From NCBI GenBank assembly GCA_951406725.2, contig OX597822.1, positions 89,714,001 through 89,778,000 on the forward strand: a stretch of 64,000 nucleotides of DNA. The letters are read 5' to 3'. Under the pieces are notes generated by a model. It saw nothing but the letters and a program-made list of their open reading frames with translations. It had not been told where the DNA came from and searched no databases. Of this stretch, positions 5,063 to 27,271 are shown in pieces; the stretch's first letter is position 1; each line of letters begins with the position of its first letter. The position numbers were made by a program, and so were the translations under genes. This DNA comes from Octopus vulgaris. Taxonomy: Eukaryota.

Positions 5063-7959
5063 AATATATAATATAATATAATATAAATATGGGCAACACA
5101 CACGTACGTACATCTATTGCATGTTTTGTGCAAGCATACATGTTCATAAACAGAAATGAATGGAAAAAATGTTGGTAAATTTGTAGATTAACACTCGTAC
5201 GATTTTCACTCGGAAAAAAAATCGTTTTTTTTGCATGGAATCAACTACTCTGGCCTCCTAATGTGCTACAATACCTTTTTTGTGGTCCGTGGAATGGAGT
5301 GGGGTGTGGTGGAAGCCTTGGAAATTGTACCCATTTATATTGTGTAATTCACTGACAAACTGTTACCTACCTCTTTGTTTCTTTGTTGTTAAATAAATGG
5401 ATTGTCAACAAAACACATTTTTACTCGACGTAAAAACAAAACTCTTTCACACCCAAAGTAATGTGTGTGTGAGAGAGAGGGGGGGAAAGATGAACGATTT
5501 AAAATAAATATATTGTAATTGTTGTGTGAGAAAGTATATATACTCTGATTATAAAATATAGAGTCTTTCAAAAACATCCTAAATTTGAACACTATATCTC
5601 GTGTTTAAGAAAAAACAAAACATTTTACATTTTATTTTTTATGAACGTTGTGACTTACTCTCCCACTCTCTCTCTCTCACTTTGTCTTTACCTTTTTTTT
5701 TGTTAGACGCTGTCAAACTATCTCCCACTCTTCCTTACACATACTTTTTCTGTACTATTTTTGTTAGATGTTGTGAAACACTCTCTCTCCCTCACACACA
5801 CACTTTCGTTTGGCTATGGCTAGAAGGGACTTAACTCATGTTAGCAGCCTTCCAATTTGGTAAAAACTATAGCTGAAAATAGATTTTTACCACTATCCAA
5901 GGGTGCCTCGAGAAAAAAATAAGTTGACAAAACCCAGGTAGGATGTTGACGAATGTCCTCCTAAAATTGGAGCGACATGTGTGCTAATTTGTGGACATGC
6001 ATAAATTACAATCACGTACACACACACATATAGATACAGATATAAATTACTGCATATAACCGATGTGTGTTATTTAACTCTGCAATTTAAGGTTGGAGCC
6101 TTTTGTCAGATGACATAAGCATGTTAAATAAGAAAAATACACAAATAACAGTGAGAGATGAACTTACTGAGCAAAATGACACAGTTGAATTTGGCAGATT
6201 TTTTAACTGTAAGCCACATCTTCCAGAACATTCAACAAATTCTTTGATGGGAAGACTCACACACTACTGTTCAAATTTGCTACATCAACCTTAATAAGTC
6301 ATCCAGTGCTGATTGAGCCACATTCAGTTAGGAGTTAATGTTTTTTATGGTGCCAACCCTAACCCTATTATGGTAATACAATAGGTCATAGTTCTGAGCT
6401 GGGAAAATGAGAATTATGGCTCAAAAGTCAGTAGGAGTGTTGCTACATATGTAGGTGTACATATTTTTTTCATGTATCAAAACAATCTGTACTCCTGTTC
6501 TTTGTGTAAGTTACCTTCCTTGTCTATAGGGAACTGACAAGAACACAAAAGAAATTTATAGACAGAAACGTCAAATAGGCACCCAAGCCCTTTTTTAAAA
6601 AATTTCCTCAGATACCTGTTTTCAACTATGGAGATTATTATTTTATCACAAAAGTAACATTTCACATTTCAACTTATAACATTCCACCCCAATTTATTAT
6701 AATTTTTATTGATAAAAATTCTGAAAAGTTTTTTATCAAAATTTCAAGTTTAAAAAAAAATTGCTTGCTGCTCCCATCGTCTTTCAAAATACTCACCTCC
6801 ACAGAGGTTTGACTCAGCTGTTCATTTGCATTGTATGCATGCTGATAGGGCAGCTGGTATTTGTAAATTAAAGAACACCTGTGATAATATATTTCTTGTT
6901 TCATGTTGGGTAAGTCTTGTTATTCCAAAAAATGGAATCATAATCTCACTATACCATCCAATGCGTCCTTCTCATTTTATACAACATTACCGGCATGGTA
7001 TTTACAGAATATCTGGCTGTAATTTCTAGTATGTAGAGCAATCACATTGACGCCTCATTCCTTAGAGCCATCAGCTAGTTCAGAGATGGGGAACCTGCAA
7101 CCTTAAGGCTGCATGCGACCTTCCAAGGCCATTGGTATATTTTCTTTCTTTTTTGACATTGAATATTTTTTTGTCTAAAATCATTATACACCCTAAACTT
7201 ACAATAAATGCACACATAGATGAAAGCAGTTTTCTTTGAACCCAATGAATTTAAACTCAAAGCAACAAGTATATAAAGGTAGTATTTCCTTGTCAGCTAC
7301 ACCAGCCTAGTGGGAGTAAGCGTCTCATCCATCTTTTCATTGTGATCTGTGCACCATACTTAGTAATTGCGTAGTCATGGCCAACTTCATACTGACTGGT
7401 TTTGTGAGACTGAGTTAGTTAGAGCCTTATTTGAAACTGTAAATCCATCAGTGCATGCATTAATTTTACAGACTTGTTTTTTATCATTAAGACTTGATAA
7501 GTGATACAGTGACTGTATTTATTACTACTCAGTTAAGCCAGCTGTACACTGCTTCAGACAAAACTGGTCTTAGACAAAACAATATCAATCAATGTCTGAA
7601 ACCATGTTATTGGAATTTTGGTCATAACTTCAACAACTGTCATTATTTTGTGAGATTGGAAACTGGCAATATTTGACATTATTTCTGCAACAATTAGGTA
7701 ATGATAAATAATAGCACTAATTACAGAAAAAAATAACAGCTAATCTTGATGTTGTTCAGTCTCGAATTGTAGTAACAATTGCTAAAATCAAAACCAAAAA
7801 CATGGTTTTGGATGCAAATTTATTGTGTCTTGTCTAAGACTGTTTTATTTGGGTCAATGTGTGACTGGTTTTACTAATTCGTTATTAAACTTTTATTTTT
7901 TTATAGTTTTTCAAAATAAATACACTCCTTTTTAACCCATAATTATCTCAAAAAAATTA

Positions 7960-18926: not shown

Positions 18927-19557
18927 GTGAGAGATATGCTTAACTTTCAGAAAAGTTATTTGTTTCTCTACTGTTTAGTGCTTTCTGACTTTGTTTCTTC
19001 ATAATATTAGTAAGGCATATATAAAAAAAAAAGAAGCTATCTTATAACTCGGAGCGAAAGTATTGTGCATGATATCCTGCAAGATGACTCATTCCTTTTA
19101 TTTGGCAACGTTAAGTCGTGCAATGATCAGGAGAAAGTTATGAAATGCTTGTACGGAAATCAAATATAATTCTCGCCATTATTGTGTTTCGTTTTCCTAC
19201 ATCGTTTTGATTTAGCGGTCGTCTTTAATGATGTATCGAGTTCCATATCTACCTATCCGTCTGGATCAGTCCAGCAGTCTTGTCTGTGTCTTTTTATGTA
19301 TTTGTTACATACCTCTATATATCTGCTTGTATGTCTGTCTGTCTTTTTATGTATTTGTCCATTACATATCTTTATATCTGCTTATGTGTCTGGCTTTCTA
19401 CCTGCCCTTCTCTTTGCATATCTATTTGTCTATCTACATATATCTGTAGGCAACGCTAACTGAAACATTCGCAAGTCTACAAAATATTCGTTGGGAGCCA
19501 ATGACAGTTATCTCCATTATTTACAATTGACGGATATTTGTCCTCATCTTCTTTATT

Positions 19558-19602
19558 AACACAACGTTTCGGCTGATATACCCTCCATCTTCATTAGGTG
19601 TC
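19558..19602 (-). ncRNA. Decayed minimal type-I hammerhead ribozyme (Penelope-type)
   Basis: Minus strand reads GACAC-CUAAUGA-AGAUGG-AGGGUAUA-UCAGCC-GAAA-CG-UU-GUGUU: stem I GACAC/GUGUU, core CUGAUGA with one mismatch, GAAA, palindromic AACGUU in place of helix III; stem II is damaged. Confidence 0.55.
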
Positions 19603-19879
19603 TTGGGGAAATTTCCGAACCAAAATAAAGGATTTGCAGCATATTAGGGTAAGGAGATCAGAGTACTTGATTCGGTTAAACTAACGCGTTTAACCCGGTC
19701 ATAAAAACAAAAAACAAACGAAAAAAAAAATAGTGTAATAGGTGTAAAACAACTTCCTCTAAACGAATATGAAAAAAAAAAAAAAATGCGCGCTCGCGAA
19801 AGGGGTGGGGGTGAGGCCTCGGAAAATTCATATCGTGAATTTTCGAAAGTGTCTGACCCGGGCACAAAAATAAACAAAA

Positions 19880-20305
19880 AAAATAGGGCGAAGTTTCGTT
19901 TGTCGTAGCACACGTTTCCGTCGATTTCCGTAAAAAACTTTTATTTTTTTACATATGGCTTTGCGGGAATATTTGAAGTAATGAGAGAGAAAGCGATTGT
20001 ATGACGAGGGAAGTTCTTTTGAAGTTACCGTGCATGGGAAGCATTGATGTACATGTGTGTGTGTGTTTGATGGGGTGTGGGAGACAGACAGTATGTTGTG
20101 TAAGTGAAGTGCTTCTGTTAGTGTGTGTGAAGAGACAGAGAGAGTAATGTGTGAAAGAGAGAGATAACTGAAATTTTTACTCGGTGTATGTGTATATGTA
20201 TGTATATTACTTCAAAAGTTCCCGCAAGCCCATATGTAAAAAAAAATTTTTTTTACGGAAATCGACGGAAAGGTCTACTAGAGACGAAAGATCGCCCGCA
20301 TTTTT
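19880..20305. mobile_element. MITE with long (~100 bp) terminal inverted repeats
   Basis: tttccgtcgatttccgtaaaaaa...tacatatggctttgcgggaatatttgaagtaat is inverted to attacttcaaaagttcccgcaagcccatatgtaaaa...tttacggaaatcgacggaaa. Confidence 0.75.
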
Positions 20306-20854
20306 CTTTTTTTTTCTGCTGACTTGTATTATATAGTCTTTAACTCAATTCAGCAGTGCCAAACCAAAAGTATAGAAACTATTATTTCACTTCAATGGTG
20401 TTGGTTAATGTATTGATATTGATAAATTCACCACACACACACACACACACATTCAACTCCATAATAATAATAATAATAATAACAGCAGCAGCAGATACTA
20501 AAGATGGTGCTATGGCCTTTTCTTTGATAATATCTTTCTTGCTTATTTAAATTCAGTTCAATGCACACTTGCCTTGAACCAACCATTTCTCTTTGTGTGT
20601 GTTTCAAGAAGTTTTACACCATTTACACCTTTTTTTTTTCCTTTTTTCCGGCCCGTATCAAACACTATAGTTTAAAGGCCATGGACTGAAGATGTGAATT
20701 TTCCGAGTCCTCTCCCCCACCCCATTTAGCAGATTCGTATTCTCCTTTACCGAAAACGGAGGTTTGTATCGAAAAAAAACCAAACAAAAACATAAAAGTG
20801 GGAGTTTGTGGAGTACAAAAGAAAGTCTTGCACATGCTATTAGATATATATCTC

Positions 20855-21220
20855 TCTATATATAAAGCTGAAGTTGTCTGTGTATGGCAGGTTTGGTAGC
20901 CTTCAACTAACACTATCTCCTCTGAGACCCTGCAGCGCAAGTTGACCAAAATTGAGAGTATGATAGAAGGCTTGCTCTTCCTTCCATAGAAGAAAAAATT
21001 CAAATTAGACCATGTTAACACCAAAAATTATTTACAAGGTGCTTTTTTTTTCTATGAAAATCCCTATTTATTACGATTTTTTTACTGCTGTGTCGCAATT
21101 TTTCGGTGTATTTCAACCAGAAAATTGTTCACTTAAAGAGAATAACAAGCTACATAATGCAAAATTTTTACGTTTCAAAAATTCGAAACAAACCTGAGCA
21201 ACGCCGGGCAATACTGCTAG
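20855..21220 (+). mobile_element. Non-autonomous Helitron-like element
   Basis: Starts TCtatatataaagctgaag, ends cctgagcaacgccgggcaatactgCTAG|T; inverted sister copy at 4675-5062. Confidence 0.8.
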
Positions 21221-21258
21221 TGTATATATATATATATGTATGTATGTATGTATGTATA

Positions 21259-22520
21259 CTAGCAGAGATACCCGGCGTTGCTCGTGTTACATACAGATGA
21301 AGAATTAGACTTTCTCTTATATGTTCTCTAATGAACTGGAATATGTATGTTTCGAATTTCATCAAAATTGCAGATGAGGGTTATTTACACACCCCACAAA
21401 AAATTGTAATCGTGCCACATGTATCCCTGATTTTTTTTGCGCATATTCCAAAATTCCAGTCTTATTGAATCTGTTAAAAAGATTTTGCTCCTGAAAAATG
21501 AAGGTCATGGAGCTCTAAAATGTGATAGTTAAGGCCCCTGTTGGGGGTGGGCATCTTAATGTCAACCAGAGAGTTGAATTGTTGAGAATCTTTTTAACTT
21601 GGGTCTTAAATCTATTGTTTGAATTTCTTTGAAATAGGAAATATATGTTCACTGGGTTTGTAAAAGAGTGCAAAGCTACAGGAAACCAAAAGACGAATGA
21701 CCACAATAAGCAGTCAGTTACCTTACCCTAGTCGTTACCACTCCCAATGTAGGATTCTTCACCATCCAGGTGACAGGCACAGCTGTAAGATGCATTACAA
21801 ATCTATAGCAATTGGAAGGGCGTGACTCAACTGAAATAAACATTAACAACTGTGTGACGTGAGGGCTAAGGAGAAATGAAAGTTGGAGTTTGCAAATGAC
21901 CACTATACTGATACGTAACTGGACAGAATAAATTTACAATCTATAAATGTCTTTGAATAACCAGTCACTCATCTGAGAAGGCCTTGAAATCAATGTTACC
22001 ACCTGGGGACTGTGTGACCGAGTGATAATAAAAAGACTGAAAGGAAGTCTGCAATCAAATAACTTTACTCAACACTTTGCAACTGAATCAGTGGAGGCAA
22101 AGATGCCTCTCATTTACTTGACAATTTATGCACCACATTGCAGTGTTGTACCATTGAATTAGAAATAATGCTCAACTTTTATGGTCGGGTAACCCTACAG
22201 CTTCCAAGAGCACAACTGTATTCGTTTTTGCTTAGATAAAATGACAAAATTGTGGGTGTTAAGTCCCCATGGAAGTCTTTCTATTTTGTAAGAAGATGAA
22301 ATTTGACAAATATTACTTCATTTGCGTCTAATATCTATGGTTAAGATTTCATCAACAGCAAAAACATATGAATTGTCATGGGGGTTATGGCCCTTATGCA
22401 TAGAATATAATTTCCAAATTTCATAAAGATCCATTCAGTACTTTTGACCTAGTTTTGGATCAGAAAAGAAATGACTAAAATTTGGGAGTTAAGGCTCCCA
22501 TTAGGGTGTTATATATATAT
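21259..22520 (-). mobile_element. Helitron-like element (3' end clear, 5' boundary approximate)
   Basis: Minus-strand end cacgagcaacgccgggtatctctgCTAG|T at 21259; probable 5' end at the (TA)n run near 22520. Confidence 0.5.
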
Positions 22521-22735
22521 ATATACACACATACAAGGATAAATTGACAGATACATCTGAGTGGGCAAACAAAAATATGAGACACAGCCTAGTGCTTTTT
22601 TTATGTTGAGAAGCCTGGTACTTATTCTGTTAGTTTGTTCTTGTGAAACCAGTAAGTTATGTGGATGTAAATAAATGAACAGCAGTTGTGAAGCAGTGAT
22701 GAGGGCGAAACACAGACACACACACATACACTTAC

Positions 22736-22766
<31 letters not shown>

Positions 22767-22804
22767 TGATTTGTTTCAGTTCCTGTCTATGAAATCCATA
22801 TATA

Positions 22805-23023
22805 TTGTTGTTGGCATCCTTTTTGTCTCGGGAGACAATGGAGTTGCGCATAAAATAATCTAGTCAGGCTTTTACATTTCATGTCTTAATACATCTACTG
22901 TGGCTGTGTAGTCCTATCCTGGACAAACACTCCCTCTGGCAGGTGCCGTAAATGTAGCGAAGACTTTGCCTGGCTGGTTGTAATGTCATAGTTTCTTGTT
23001 GACGTCTTGTCTTTCCATTTCTC

Positions 23024-23059
<36 letters not shown>

Positions 23060-25540
23060 CACTCCTTTGTGTTCCCTCATTTATGGTACATCGCCAATGT
23101 CCATGGTTGCTGGCAACTGCTTCCCAGTTGATAATATTGATGTTGCAGGCATTCATGCCCCTTTTGCAAACATCCTTGTATCGTAAGGACGGTTTTCCCA
23201 CAGACCTAGTGCCCTTAGCAAGCTCTCTGTAAAGTATGTCCTTGGGGATTCTGCCATTTGCCATACAGCTATCATGTCCAAGCCATCTCATACGTCTTTG
23301 TGTGAGGAGTGTAAACATGCTTGGTATTCCAGCTTGCTTGAAGACATCTTTGTTGGGGCATGATTCTGCCATTTGATGCGATGGATTTTCCGGAGGCAGC
23401 GCAGGTGAAAGATGTTTAGGCGACGCTCTTGGTGTGTGTATGGCGTCCAAGTCTCACTTTCATACAGTAGAGTGCTAAATACACATGCCTGGTAAATCTT
23501 CATTTTTGTGGTCTTGGTCAGCTTATTGTTGTCCCATGCCTGTTTGGAGAGTTGGACCATCACAGCAGCTGCCTTGCCAATGCGTATATTGAGCTCAGCA
23601 TCAAGGGATAGGTTGTAGGTGACGGTAGAGCCAAGATAGGTAAACTTCTCCACCTCCTATAGTCTGTGATCTCCAATATGTATGTTTGGGATGTCTGATG
23701 TAGCCTGACCCATGATGTTGGTCTTCTTGAGGCTGATAACTAAGCCAAAGTCGCTACAAGCTTGCTCAAAACAGTTGATGAGCCTTTGTAGGGCTTCTTC
23801 TGTATGTGATACCAGAGCATCATCATCAGCAAATAGCATCTCCTTGATCAGGACGCTTCTAATTTTGGTCTTGCCATGCAGATGCGAGAGATTGAACAGT
23901 TTCCCGTCACTTCTACTGTGCAGAAACACTCCATCATCTGATGTCTCAAAGGCATGTGACAGCAGCAGCGAGAAGATGCCAAATAATGTAGGAGCAAGGA
24001 CACAATCTTGCTTTAACCTGTTTTTTATTTGGAAGGCGGCTGATGTTGAACCATTGTGTTATATGGTGCCTTGAATATCATCATGGAAAGATTTGATGAT
24101 CCTCAGCTGCTTTGGTGGACATCCGATTTTTTGGAGCAGGATGAAGAGGACTTTTCTACTTACCAAGTCAAAGGCCTTTGTCCGATCAATGAAGGCCATA
24201 TATAATGGCATTTTCTGCTCTCTGGACTTCTCCTGAAGTTGGCGTATGGAGAATGTCATGTCAAAAGTTGATCTGCTTCTTCTAAAGCAACACTACGATT
24301 CTGGATAAATTCGAGAAGCAAGCAGTTGTAGCCTGGACAGGATAACGCGAGCAAAGGCCTTTCCAACAGTTCTTAGAAGAGATATTCCACAGTAATTGTT
24401 ACAATCACCATGGTCACCTTTGTTTTTGTAAAGCGTAATGATGTTGGCATCCCGCATATCCTGAAGGACTGTACCCTCTTCCCAGCACTGACACAGAAGC
24501 TCATGAAGGTGCCGAAGCAGGATGGTGTTTTTGCCGGTTTTGATGATCTCTAAGGGGATGCCGTCTTTTCCCGGAGCCTTGTTACTTGCTAGGGAATCAA
24601 TAGCCTTGGTGAGCTCTGCTATAGATGGCAGACTGTCAAGTTCACACGTGACTGGCAAGATCTTGACACCCTCGATTGCAGCCTCAGCTACCGAGATCTC
24701 CCATGAGTAGAGATCCTGGTAGTACCCCACCCATCTATCCATTTGCTTGCTTTAGTCCTTGATGAGATCTCCAGTAGTTGATTTCAGAGTGGCTGACTTG
24801 GTTGTGGATGGACCGAGGGCCTTCTTCAAACCGGCATACATCCCATGGGTGTTGCCACTATCAGAAGCTGACTGGATACTCTGACAGATTTTCTGCCAAT
24901 ACCTATTTGCACAGCGTCTGGCAGTCAGTTGGGTTTTATTTCTTGCCTTTCTGAGTTCTTCGAGTGACTTTGTAGAAGAATCACTCTTGTATTGCATCAG
25001 AGCTGCACACTTTGCTTCAATAACTGTTTCCAGCTCTGAGAGCCCAGCACTGAACCAATCTAAGTTTTGCCTTTCTCTCATACCGAAAGTATCTATTGAT
25101 GTAGTATACAAAGCTTCCCTGATATAATTCCACCTACTTTCAGCAGAGGAGGTTGGGCAGGTACTGAGGGCAACTTTGGTAGAAACAGCAAAACATTGTT
25201 GCAGTGTAGGGTCCGAGGTTTTGGCAGTGTTAATGCGTTGTTGGCCCATTTTCTTGGAATGATGGACTTTTTTAGACAGAACCTTCACCCTGCTTCTTAT
25301 TAGTGAATGATCTGTGTCACAATCCACGCTGTGGTAACTACGGGTCAGTTGAACAAAATTCAGAAAGGATCTTCATGTAATGATGAGATCCAGCTGATGC
25401 CAGTGGTGAGATCTTGGATGTCTCCAAGAAGCCTTGTGGGATGTCTTGTTGGCAAAGAATGTGTTGGTGATGCACAGGTTATGGTATGTACAAAATTCAA
25501 GTAGTCTCTGACCACTGTCATTCATGTTGCCAATACCAAA
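22805..25540 (-). mobile_element. RTE/BovB-like LINE, ~2.7 kb, 5'-truncated and frameshifted
   Basis: WRHPRSHHWHQLDLI..DCDTDHSLI (endonuclease), KAPGKDGIP, NYCGISLL, FID.TKAFD, KQDCVLAPTLF, LFADD, FTYLGS, LLYESETW, GRIPKDILY; (CAA)n tail at 22805; ~80-bp flanking duplication. Confidence 0.92.
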
Positions 25541-25610
25541 ACATACACTTACATATATACATACATATATATATACGATTGATTTGTTTCAGCTACTGTC
25601 TACGAAATCC

Positions 25611-25659
<49 letters not shown>

Positions 25660-25859
25660 GATAAATTGATAGATACAACTGAGTGGGCAAACAAAAATAT
25701 GAGACATTGCGTAGTGCTTTTTTATATTTTGATAAGCCTATCAGTTTCTTCTTGTGAAACCAGTAAGTTATGGGGATGTAAATAAACGAACACCAGTTGT
25801 GAAGCAGTGATGAGGGAGAAACACAAAGACACACACATAGACTTATATATATACATACA

Positions 25860-26030
25860 TATACATACAGTTGATTTCTTTCAGTTTCTGTCTACAAAAT
25901 CCACTGACAAGGCTTTGGTTGGTCTGAGGCTATAGCAGAAGACACATGCCAAGTTACCACACAGTGGGACTGAACTGAGGACCATGTGTTTTGGAACCAA
26001 GTTTGTTACCACACAGCCACACCTGCACCT
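25860..26030 (-). mobile_element. tRNA/CORE-like SINE
   Basis: Reverse complement of the family at 36472 (ggtgcaggtgtggctgtgtggtaa...agttcagtcccactg...cttggcatgtgtcttc). Confidence 0.7.
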
Positions 26031-26083
26031 ATGTATGTGTGGGTGTATGTGTGTATGGGTGTATATATGTATGCATGTATATA

Positions 26084-26121
<38 letters not shown>

Positions 26122-26540
26122 AACATACATATATACATATGTATATCTATAGAAATACATCTATATATATATACATGTATACATATACAGCTATACACAT
26201 ACATGTATACATATACATCTATATATATACATGTATATACACATCCATATACATACAATAGAGAGATGTTTTTGTTTCACTTTTAACACATAATACTGAA
26301 ATAGTGGAGAAGATATAATATTGCTAGGCAAGAAGTTAAACATTTTTTTTTTGCCCATGACACTACATGGACCCTAAGTAAGCCCCCCCCCCCCCATTCC
26401 AAACCAAAATATGGGATTTGCAGCATATTACGAGGTCAGGGTACTTGATTCCACGCAAAAAATCTGAGGTTTTTTTTTTTTTTTTTTTTTTTTAGTGAAA
26501 ATCGTGCAGGTGTTACTCTGGAAATTTACCCTCAATCGTA

Positions 26541-26753
26541 AAGTATTTTTCGGCGTTGTTGTTGTTATTATTATTCAGGTCACTGCTTGGAATTGAACTT
26601 GGAATCTTGGGGTTAGTAGCCTGCGCTCTTAACCACTACGCCATATACCGTGGTTAAGAATGCAGGCTACTAACCCCAGGCAGTGACCTGCATGATAATA
26701 ATAATAACAACAACAACATCGAAAAATACCTTATCCGTCAATTGTAAATAATG
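26541..26753. repeat. Fold-back palindrome of a tRNA-like head plus (AAT/AAC)n
   Basis: Arms 26541-26636 and 26650-26732 are reverse complements around a 13-nt loop; the minus arm has A-box TGGCGTAGTGG and B-box GTTCAATTCC. Confidence 0.8.
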
Positions 26754-27150: not shown

Positions 27151-27271
27151 ATGGAAGAATCCTCAAAATTAAAAGGACTCAGTAAAGTGAAACTAAAAGT
27201 TGTGAAGAAAAAAGTCCATATACGACAGCATAAAAATTTAAATCGTTCTAACAGCAGTTTTAACTGCAGCT
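27151..27271 (+). CDS. SGO1: Shugoshin exon 2 (basic N-terminus)
   Basis: ttttctttgtttag|ATGGAAGAA...AGCT|gtaagt; MEESSKLKGLSKVKLKVVKKK...SFNCS; phase 1 joins exon 3 as TTA. Confidence 0.85.

What the first reader, a model, noticed from the sequence alone, without database searches (positions are those of the whole stretch)
19515..26753. Split fold-back element joining a tRNA-like Pol III head to a Penelope-type hammerhead ribozyme (retrozyme-like SINE)
A perfect 22-bp inverted repeat (cattatttacaattgacggata 19515-19536; tatccgtcaattgtaaataatg 26732-26753) brackets 7.2 kb of nested TEs. Inside the left end is a decayed minimal hammerhead on the minus strand (19602-19558). Inside the right end is a head-to-head palindrome of a tRNA-like head (A and B boxes) plus (AAT/AAC)n. 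Removing the intervening DNA gives a short unit, tRNA head - microsatellite - hammerhead - terminus, in inverted duplicate. Minimal hammerheads with a palindromic helix III and inverted terminal arrangements are established for Penelope-like elements, and tRNA-headed hammerhead repeats are known in schistosomes. A cephalopod Pol III-driven, self-cleaving, Penelope-mobilised family is my inference. This copy is probably inactive (CUAAUGA core).
Basis: partly seen in the sequence, partly recalled or inferred. Interest (0 to 1): 0.72.

Follow-up and report, generated by a model that had tools for sequence, protein, structure and literature searches.

The report
Penelope jumping gene with tRNA-type promoter
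The two pieces are the separated halves of one broken copy of the end repeat of a very common protein-coding Penelope-type jumping gene, not a separate SINE; the repeat begins with a tRNA-type promoter and the whole element lacks RNA polymerase III stop signals, so it is likely read by polymerase III, which would be unexpected for a transposon that makes its own protein.

Summary
In detail: inverted 22-mer, decayed minimal hammerhead, tRNA-like head and (AAT/AAC)n are where stated, and the halves are contiguous elsewhere. They are not a SINE or retrozyme. The unit is the pseudo-LTR (pLTR) of an autonomous Penelope/Poseidon-type element: 2,652-nt monomer, 835-aa RT plus GIY-YIG-type ORF starting inside the repeat, about 60,000 insertions estimated, most without ORF. 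Solo and ORF-linked repeats share consensus, divergence and frame-preserving indels. Inverted pairs and a one-sided 30-nt tail (35 of 38 pairs) are known Penelope hallmarks. The unusual part: the pLTR starts with a SINE/tRNA-derived head with intact A and B boxes, 5' ends pile up just upstream of box A, and the consensus sense strand has no run of four T (P 0.003-0.03; control families have them). An unrelated element (L226) also has A/B boxes there. Polymerase III transcription of a protein-coding retrotransposon is my inference (about 0.55); a TATA-like box upstream keeps polymerase II open, and one headless family also has a T4-free ORF. This copy is inactive (core G5A, deletions). The scan reported the same family earlier on other DNA of this genome.

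The parts
19508..19621 (-). Left arm, 3' part of the antisense pLTR (family positions 133-249): codons of the ORF N-terminus, hammerhead and 3' terminus; no tail
   Evidence: 89.8% identical to the family consensus; alignment
19515..19536 (-). Left 22-mer: family positions 222-243, next to the first of the two common 3' ends (u241-250)
19558..19602 (-). Minimal type I hammerhead with palindromic ACGU helix III; core reads CUAAUGA (G5A) and stem II is damaged; predicted cut after GUU between 19563 and 19562; predicted inactive
   Evidence: that G5A inactivates hammerheads is recalled knowledge
19613..19673 (+). One subterminal repeat unit of an unrelated, probably DNA-transposon, family; joined to the pLTR arm at a 9-10 nt microhomology
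   Evidence: 80% like 26397-26451; family has 2,191 candidates with internal repeats
19672..26386 (.). Nested later insertions: inverted-repeat elements (about 19672-20731, with one nested at 19873-20316), a repeat at 20838-21221, SINE-like pieces (22525-22800, 25647-26030), a decayed LINE and simple repeats
   Evidence: blastn against stored loci; repeats
23060..25545 (-). Decayed endonuclease plus reverse-transcriptase LINE, probably RTE clade; passenger, not part of the element
   Evidence: translation; the clade name is recalled from motifs, not from a call
26387..26530 (+). Terminus of the same probable DNA transposon; marks the right edge of the interruption
   Evidence: matches end sharply at 26530-26531 in 40 scored copies; related copy at 5174-5304
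26531..26653 (-). Left arm, 5' part of the antisense pLTR (family positions 3-126): tRNA/SINE-like head, (AAT)n(AAC)n, linker, mutated start codon at 26533-26535
   Evidence: 88.7% identical to the consensus
26633..26643 (-). Box A (TGGCGTAGTGG), intact
   Evidence: sequence; family positions 14-24
26589..26599 (-). Box B (AGTTCAATTCC), 44 nt from box A, intact
   Evidence: sequence; family positions 58-68
26650..26753 (+). Right arm: inverted, 5'-truncated pLTR starting at family position 21 through a GTGG microhomology; 20-nt deletion removes box B, 104-nt deletion removes start codon and hammerhead; ends at position 243
   Evidence: pairwise alignment
26732..26753 (+). Right 22-mer: family positions 222-243, sharing the u231 variant with the left arm

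Best explanation
This is one broken, inverted solo pseudo-LTR of an autonomous Penelope/Poseidon-type retrotransposon, later split by 6.9 kb of nested insertions, and the parent element is likely transcribed by RNA polymerase III from a tRNA-type promoter captured into that repeat. Shown: the monomer is head (A and B boxes), (AAT)n, start codon, hammerhead inside the first codons, tail, then the rest of an 835-aa RT/endonuclease ORF that stops 23 nt before the next head; most copy 5' ends lie at the head's first bases; 3' ends lie at two sites about 30 nt apart. Inferred: (1) an RNA starts at the G 13 nt upstream of box A and runs into the ORF; the sense strand has lost every T4 run, so polymerase III would not stop; (2) as shown in vitro for anole Poseidon, the protein would nick AT-rich DNA and start reverse transcription inside the RNA at the pLTR/ORF junction; copying from there to the RNA 5' end gives a 250-280 nt solo pLTR, which explains why most copies have no ORF; only longer-than-unit RNAs would deliver the ORF; (3) both DNA ends are primed (one at each start site) from the same source RNA and the cDNA ends join through the short palindrome at the head's start or other microhomologies, giving head-to-head pairs with one tail; (4) solo copies keep a promoter but lack the ORF sequence beyond the tail that the anole protein needs, so they are probably dead ends, not a SINE lineage; (5) the hammerhead probably cuts only as a dimer or with protein help and is not needed for insertion.
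For: ORF end directly upstream of the head in L011 and most of L062-L080; pLTR upstream of and in frame with the ORF in L084, L090; uninterrupted 835-aa consensus ORF, monomer 2,652 nt; homologues carry RT domains, one is an 836-aa Anolis carolinensis protein at 44% (RT) and 35% (C-terminal part). 26 insertions in 120 evenly spaced 10-kb stretches of C1-C8, 22 without ORF, 13 inverted. Of 40 head-bearing arms from sets not picked on 5' sequence, 24 of the 29 that reach u16 end between u-5 and u16, none in the next 24 nt, 5 run on; ORF-bearing copies L108, L112, L126 also start at u10, u5, u1. Tail on exactly one arm in 35 of 38 inverted pairs; arms share derived variants at 0.0058 per site against 0.0017 (maximum 0.0043) in 2,000 permutations. 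Solo and ORF-linked repeats: divergence 7.6/7.6% (head), 5.2/5.4% (rest); the seven indel classes seen 6 or more times are 3 or 9 nt except one 1-nt change in a homopolymer. For polymerase III: one A+B pair in the monomer, none on the antisense strand, 0 of 20,000 shuffles; boxes intact though acceptor and T stems are broken; head 64-73% like other A/B-box SINE-type heads of this genome; T>=4 runs 0 in 2,652 nt against 30 A>=4 runs, P = 0.028 (codon shuffle), 0.003 (third-base model), 0.007 (base shuffle), TTTT the most depleted 4-mer; a Neptune-type family of the same genome has 11 in 2.3 kb; 21 related families total 108 observed against 91 expected; related pLTRs are mostly T-rich before the hammerhead; 31 of 38 host tRNA genes have T>=4 within 40 nt, 11 of them exactly T4 first. 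L226, the only one of 21 related loci with an A+B pair between ORF and hammerhead, also has 0 T4 in its 2,349-nt aligned ORF part (5.1 expected).
Against: No experiment. A TATA-like TTTATAAG lies about 28 nt upstream of the start, which suits polymerase II as well; fixed pLTR 5' ends with palindromes occur in Penelope elements without tRNA heads (PMC3846280, passages), so the pile-up of ends shows a start site, not the polymerase. The T4 deficit is modest: P = 0.07 and 0.23 under order-1 and order-2 Markov nulls, and G>=4 is also absent. The headless L259 family has a T4-free ORF too (0 against 3.7 expected), and 4 of 21 families have none. L226's whole ORF has two T4 near its start (P = 0.18), its head is no more like host tRNAs than shuffles (49 against 49), and I widened the box pattern after seeing it. 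Boxes are only slightly better conserved among copies than the rest of the head (4.2 against 5.3%), as expected for copies that decay after insertion. An uncapped polymerase III RNA would need an unexplained route to translation; Kojima 2024 (PMC10886601, passage) holds that autonomous elements must use polymerase II. One CpG site in box B differs between solo and linked copies (28 of 77 against 6 of 60), a possible hint of a solo sublineage. I saw no complete head-to-tail tandem of two monomers.
Confidence: 0.6

Rival explanations
1. Ordinary Poseidon-type element transcribed by polymerase II. A SINE head was captured into the 3' UTR and rides along; the RNA starts at u1 because of the upstream TATA-like box (or an internal polymerase II promoter); the missing T runs are a by-product of an A-rich coding strand.
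For: TTTATAAG about 28 nt upstream of u1 and a TCACTCC initiator-like word between; Drosophila Penelope has an internal LINE-like promoter (PMC2377424, abstract); Adineta pLTRs have TATA/Inr and 5' palindromes (PMC3846280, passages); headless L259 family has a T4-free ORF; weak significance under Markov nulls.
Against: Both boxes are intact at tRNA spacing while the tRNA stems are broken; the untranslated part is also free of T4, unlike the T-rich UTRs of most relatives including L259's family; the same-genome Neptune-type control has 11 T4 runs; ORF-bearing copies that start at u1-10 lack the TATA-like box.
Confidence: 0.3
2. Two promoters: polymerase II makes the coding RNA from a tandem locus, and polymerase III makes short RNAs from solo pLTRs that are themselves copied in trans, i.e. 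a nascent Penelope-mobilised SINE.
For: 22 of 26 random insertions have no ORF; solo copies retain A and B boxes; box B CpG asymmetry between solo and linked copies; pLTRs can act in trans in Adineta (PMC3846280, passage).
Against: No diagnostic solo consensus, equal divergence, frame-preserving indels in solo copies too; anole Poseidon needs the first 172 nt of the ORF on the template, beyond the tail where solo copies end (PMC11167929, parts 1-2 of 4); internal initiation alone explains the excess of solo copies.
Confidence: 0.08
3. Retrozyme-like element that propagates through hammerhead cleavage and circular RNA.
For: Consensus hammerhead is intact (119 of 179 arms keep CUGAUGA) and its stems covary across ten families; retrozymes are related to pLTRs (bioRxiv 10.64898/2026.07.22.740005, part 1 of 5 and passages).
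Against: No head-to-tail arrays among 26 random insertions or 58 picked loci; no clear excess of 5' ends at the cut site (14 of 201 at risk in u186-201, near background); hammerheads in inverted arms lie on opposite strands and could not pair as a dimer in one transcript.
Confidence: 0.02

Closest known systems
Poseidon_Ac (PAc) of Anolis carolinensis, Penelope/Poseidon clade (Frangieh et al. 2024, PMC11167929; parts 1-2 of 4 read)
   Same: Single RT plus C-terminal endonuclease ORF of about 835 aa, ORF start inside the pLTR next to the hammerhead, two 3' ends that define a tail, AT-rich flanks. An 836-aa Anolis protein (P0091) is 44% identical over the RT; that P0091 is PAc is my inference.
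   Different: The octopus-type element has a tRNA/SINE head with A and B boxes at the pLTR start, an (AAT)n spacer and a T4-free sense strand; none of this is mentioned for PAc in the parts read. The endonuclease motif reads VY..PCSCG..YKG, as in its closest relatives.
Adineta vaga Penelope families, e.g. Pen2a (Arkhipova et al. 2013, PMC3846280; passages)
   Same: pLTR of about 200-280 nt that includes the first codons, adjacent inverted pLTR, optional 31-nt tail on one end, palindrome at the pLTR 5' end.
   Different: Their pLTRs carry TATA/Inr-like motifs; 'tRNA' does not occur in the main text.
Minimal type I hammerheads of metazoan PLEs (Cervera and De la Pena 2014, PMC4209133; parts 1-2 of 4, two of three supplements searched)
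   Same: CUGANGA, extra base before stem II, G10.1-C11.1, longer stem II, 4-5 bp stem I, palindromic helix III.
   Different: Their consensus has a U-rich stretch upstream; here it is not U-rich.
Schistosome SM-alpha/Sj-alpha SINE-like repeats (as reviewed in PMC6765202; passages; primary papers not read)
   Same: Polymerase III promoter followed by a hammerhead.
   Different: Those are non-coding tandem repeats released by cleavage; here the unit is the end repeat of a coding element and occurs singly or inverted.
TRIMp3: Cassandra, Helenus, Ajax (Kojima 2024, PMC10886601; abstract and passages)
   Same: A small-RNA-derived polymerase III promoter inside a terminal repeat, proposed to arise by SINE insertion.
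   Different: All are non-autonomous LTR elements; the paper states their autonomous partners must use polymerase II. Here the promoter sits in the repeat of the protein-coding element itself.
Octopus SINEs OK, OR1, OR2 (Ohshima and Okada 1994; not held, seen only as cited in PMC4824008 and PMC4758252)
   Same: tRNA-derived heads in an octopus; the head here is 64-73% like other SINE-type heads of this genome.
   Different: OR1 and OR2 are cited as CORE-SINEs; this unit has no body other than PLE sequence. I could not compare the published sequences, so identity with one of the three is not excluded.

Membership tests
EN+ Penelope-like element, Penelope/Poseidon clade | Single ORF with RT and C-terminal GIY-YIG-type endonuclease | tested here: met
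   835-aa consensus ORF; RVT_1 hit E 6e-05, below the curated cut-off; aligns end to end with PLE-type proteins; motif reads YKG
EN+ Penelope-like element, Penelope/Poseidon clade | pLTR that contains the ORF start and flanks the ORF | tested here: met
   L084, L090, L108, L112, L126; 3' pLTR after the stop
EN+ Penelope-like element, Penelope/Poseidon clade | Minimal type I hammerhead in the pLTR | tested here: met
   90% of 91 cells paired, 9 of 10 pairs with compensatory change across 10 sequences, slid controls 24-42%
EN+ Penelope-like element, Penelope/Poseidon clade | Inverted 5'-truncated copy and 30-40 nt tail on one end | tested here: met
   13 of 26 random insertions inverted; tail on one arm in 35 of 38 pairs; the window copy has no tail
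EN+ Penelope-like element, Penelope/Poseidon clade | Placement among Poseidon-type rather than Neptune-type proteins | tested here: met
   Groups with P0001/2/8/9/3/5 (SH-aLRT 100), far from the host Neptune-type protein; quick tree only, no named reference set
EN+ Penelope-like element, Penelope/Poseidon clade | Partial-tandem master loci | tested here: inconclusive
   pLTR-ORF-pLTR copies seen (L090, L173); no two complete monomers in tandem within the 3-4.7 kb loci
EN+ Penelope-like element, Penelope/Poseidon clade | Polymerase II promoter in the pLTR | tested here: inconclusive
   TATA-like word upstream of, and A/B boxes inside, the repeat
SINE (SINEBase definition, PMC3531059) | Short (<700 nt) with a tRNA-, 7SL- or 5S-derived head | tested here: met
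   Solo copies 250-280 nt; head aligns to host tRNAs above all 300 shuffles
SINE (SINEBase definition, PMC3531059) | Non-autonomous family with its own lineage, distinct from the partner | tested here: not met
   Same consensus and divergence as ORF-linked pLTRs; frame-preserving indels; one CpG site differs
SINE (SINEBase definition, PMC3531059) | Transcribed by polymerase III from an internal promoter | tested here: inconclusive
   Boxes, start site and T4 deficit are indirect; RNA runs were unstranded and fragmented
SINE (SINEBase definition, PMC3531059) | Reverse-transcribed by a partner LINE | tested here: not met
   The 3' end is PLE coding sequence
Non-LTR retrozyme | Head-to-tail tandem units, each with a hammerhead | tested here: not met
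   None among 26 random insertions and 58 picked loci
Non-LTR retrozyme | Non-coding unit | tested here: not met
   u122-275 encodes the first 51 residues of the ORF
Non-LTR retrozyme | Self-cleavage and circular RNA | not testable with these tools
   No pile-up of copy ends at the cut site; no bench data
TRIMp3 (Cassandra/Helenus/Ajax) | Non-autonomous element with two LTRs, PBS and PPT | tested here: not met
   Coding PLE monomer, no LTR pair around a non-coding interior

The most novel reading that the evidence does not exclude
An autonomous, protein-coding retrotransposon transcribed by RNA polymerase III: a Poseidon-type element captured a SINE head as its promoter, purged its whole 2.65-kb sense strand of terminators, has its 835-aa protein translated from an uncapped RNA, and the same solution arose at least twice (L226).
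Probability: 0.45. Interest if true: 0.8.

Novelty: new variant of a known kind. Interest (0 to 1): 0.52.

Why it matters
The field separates autonomous retrotransposons (polymerase II) from SINEs (polymerase III); SINEBase defines them so (PMC3531059, passages) and Kojima 2024 argues autonomous elements must use polymerase II. A high-copy coding element with a tRNA-type promoter and a terminator-free strand would break that rule and make two things directly testable: long polymerase III transcripts, and translation of an uncapped retroelement RNA. Even under polymerase II, the family shows that tens of thousands of SINE-looking, hammerhead-bearing repeats are by-products of internal initiation by a Penelope element, which extends the in vitro anole result to a genome and warns against automatic SINE annotation in cephalopods.

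Tried and rejected
Rfam and ARAGORN found no hammerhead or tRNA in family copies; the models miss minimal hammerheads and decayed heads, so this says little. PDB sequence search: nothing at E <= 1. Pfam: one sub-threshold RT hit, none for the C-terminal fragment. Viral contigs: 30 pattern matches, no relative. Sequencing runs: no indexed RNA holder listed. Three raw RNA runs with the same species label as some holders lay on the pLTR and the ORF 3' part, equally on both strands, with no pile-up at the head start or cut site; unstranded fragmented libraries of a repeat cannot show promoter, strand or cleavage, so I use them neither way. Hammerhead cleavage as a source of 5' ends: no clear peak. 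Extra conservation of the hammerhead core among copies: 4.4% against 5.3%, not convincing. A T4-free clade of PLEs: rejected, T4-free ORFs are scattered on the tree. First box pattern missed the element's own box B and was corrected. Target-site duplications were not surveyed beyond this locus. The random sample is 120 stretches on C1-C8 only; the other chromosomes were not sampled. Not in print, as far as searched: searches returned no paper on a tRNA-headed or polymerase III Penelope element; supplements of PMC13282606, PMC8557442 and two of three of PMC4209133 held no match to the hammerhead word. Repbase, Dfam, the O. vulgaris repeat library, Ohshima and Okada 1994, Lunse et al. 2017 (not held) and bioRxiv supplements could not be seen and may hold this family.

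Full report
Observation. The two 22-mers are exact reverse complements and stop sharply. The minus strand at 19602-19558 has the layout of a minimal type I hammerhead with core CUAAUGA, and 26531-26733 has two opposed tRNA-like heads with (AAT)n(AAC)n. The window is G000:C9:89,714,001-89,778,000 of a 2.8-Gb genome; that it is an octopus is inference, not a call result. Each half is a high-copy repeat (1,855 and 2,616 first-look candidates, 40 scored each). Elsewhere the halves are one unit: 15 of 29 hammerhead-picked loci carry the head in register and 28 of 29 head-picked loci carry the hammerhead (my reading).

What the unit is. In L011 and L010 the sequence upstream of the head is not flank but the end of a reading frame. 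Searching with it gave loci with ORF end, head, linker, hammerhead and tail in order, and walking upstream gave the RT and then a second pLTR in front of the ORF. The majority sequence of 79 segments gives an uninterrupted ORF of 835 aa that starts at position 122 of the repeat, 34 nt before the hammerhead core, and stops 23 nt before the next head; the monomer is 2,652 nt. Homologues carry RT domains and include an 836-aa Anolis carolinensis protein (44% over the RT, 35% over the C-terminal part); the nearest are 57-75% identical and unnamed. This is the architecture of Penelope/Poseidon elements (PMC8557442, PMC3846280, passages; PMC11167929, parts 1-2 of 4). The hammerhead stems covary across ten sequences from different families (90% of 91 cells paired, 9 of 10 pairs compensated, slid controls 24-42%).

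Copy structure. In 120 evenly spaced 10-kb stretches of C1-C8 there are 26 insertions (about 60,000 +/- 12,000 genome-wide if representative); 22 have no ORF sequence, 13 are inverted, 11 have head and hammerhead. 3' ends cluster at u241-250 and u272-281, about 30 nt apart, like the two internal RT start sites that define the tail of anole Poseidon. Of 38 inverted pairs 35 have the tail on exactly one arm, 2 on both, 1 on none; paired arms share derived variants 3.4 times more than permuted pairs. 5' ends: of 40 head-bearing arms (17 random, 23 from hammerhead-picked loci), 24 of the 29 that reach u16 end between u-5 and u16, none in the next 24 nt and 5 run into the ORF end. The head starts with a 5-bp palindrome that forms the centre of many inverted pairs.

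Not a SINE. Solo and ORF-linked repeats have equal divergence (7.6 and 7.6% in the head, 5.2 and 5.4% downstream), no fixed difference, and recurrent indels of 3 or 9 nt inside the coding part. So the sources were under selection for the reading frame. One CpG site in box B does differ (28 of 77 solo, 6 of 60 linked). Internal initiation explains the solo copies: RT starting at the pLTR/ORF junction of an RNA that begins at the head yields only the pLTR. The anole protein needs the first 172 nt of the ORF on its template (PMC11167929); solo copies here end at ORF +123 to +160, so by analogy they would be poor templates. This step is inferred.

This locus. The antisense arm runs u249-133 (19508-19621) and u126-3 (26531-26653); the sense arm starts at u21 and has lost u47-66 and about u119-222. 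Both ends share the u231 variant (13 of 178 other arms), so this is one insertion. Between them lie the end of a probable DNA transposon, a subterminal unit of the same family joined at a microhomology, inverted-repeat elements, SINE pieces and a decayed LINE. The only hammerhead has G5A, the start codon is mutated, there is no tail and no visible target-site duplication. The copy is a fossil about 400 nt upstream of an expressed exon.

The unusual part. The head aligns to the genome's own tRNAs (best tRNA-Arg, 49-51 of 76 positions) above all 300 shuffles and is 64-73% like other SINE-type heads, so capture of a SINE head is likely. Boxes A and B are intact, 44 nt apart, the only such pair in the monomer, while the acceptor and T stems are broken. 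The inferred start is a G 13 nt before box A. The sense strand has no T>=4 in 2,652 nt (P = 0.028 codon shuffle, 0.003 third-base model, 0.007 base shuffle; 0.07 and 0.23 under Markov nulls that absorb TT and TTT depletion). Host tRNA genes are mostly followed by T>=4 (31 of 38). Controls: an equally A-rich Neptune-type family in this genome has 11 such runs in 2.3 kb; 21 related families from metagenomes and genome bins (longest member, at least 1,200 nt; shorter families left out) have 108 against 91 expected, but four have none, among them the headless L259 family. Most related pLTRs are T-rich before the hammerhead, as in the published consensus. One of 21 related loci, L226, has an A+B pair at the same place (3 of 20,000 shuffles; pattern widened after I saw it) and the strongest T4 deficit in the aligned region, though two T4 runs lie early in its ORF and its head is not measurably tRNA-like by alignment.

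Weighing. Identity as a Penelope/Poseidon pLTR: about 0.95. Polymerase III as the source of at least the retrotransposing RNA: about 0.55-0.6. Against it stand a TATA-like word 28 nt upstream of the start, known 5' palindromes and fixed ends in headless pLTRs (PMC3846280), the L259 counter-example and the translation problem. RNA runs could not decide.

Known and new. tRNA-type promoters in terminal repeats are known only for non-autonomous elements in what I read (PMC10886601; schistosome repeats in PMC6765202). Ten literature searches gave no tRNA-headed or polymerase III Penelope element; Repbase, Dfam and Ohshima and Okada 1994 were not available. The scan noted the same family before on other DNA of this genome (e1-8669850 reached the same reading; e1-8663237 speaks of SINE-like short copies; e1-8663524 of a tRNA-headed hitchhiker, which my one search does not support if it is this family). 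I had recorded my reading before that look-up. Verdict: new variant of a known kind, interest 0.52.

Noticed in passing
L226:2828-3030 and 5619-5684 (contig JGI1357J11328_10009043): An intact, tandem Penelope-like element (855-aa ORF, 38% identical) with box A- and box B-like words 56 nt apart between the ORF stop and the hammerhead, followed by a short AAT tract; only two T4 runs per monomer, both early in the ORF, one in a small hairpin loop. On a separate long branch in the quick tree. Possible second case.
   Followed up: partly
L228, L253, L254, L255, L259: A Penelope-like family with no T4 in about 2 kb of ORF but a very T-rich 330-nt UTR and no A/B boxes; counter-example to the T4 argument.
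   Followed up: partly
L097:2860-3478, L197-L225: A second, Neptune-type Penelope-like family of this genome (1,033 candidates), used as control.
   Followed up: partly
L033:1-450, L007:2500-2700: Another hammerhead repeat family (CUGACGA core, short stem II, T-rich), in direct tandem in L033; retrozyme-like.
   Followed up: no
window 27151-27271 (+): A 121-nt exon with AG and GTAAGT borders, covered by RNA reads; the element ends about 400 nt upstream, probably in an intron. Gene not identified.
   Followed up: partly
window 26387-26530, 19613-19673, 5174-5304: End of a probable DNA transposon with about 125-nt subterminal repeats, 2,191 candidates, some in inverted pairs 3-5 kb apart; superfamily not determined.
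   Followed up: partly
family positions 35 and 63 (CpG sites in the head): G>A is commoner in solo than in ORF-linked heads (28 of 77 against 6 of 60 at u63); unexplained.
   Followed up: no
L425-L430: Penelope-like ORFs on contigs of bacterial genome bins; probably host DNA carried into the bins.
   Followed up: no
L141: Cluster of seven tRNA-Cys-like genes in 3 kb, two with changed anticodons.
   Followed up: no
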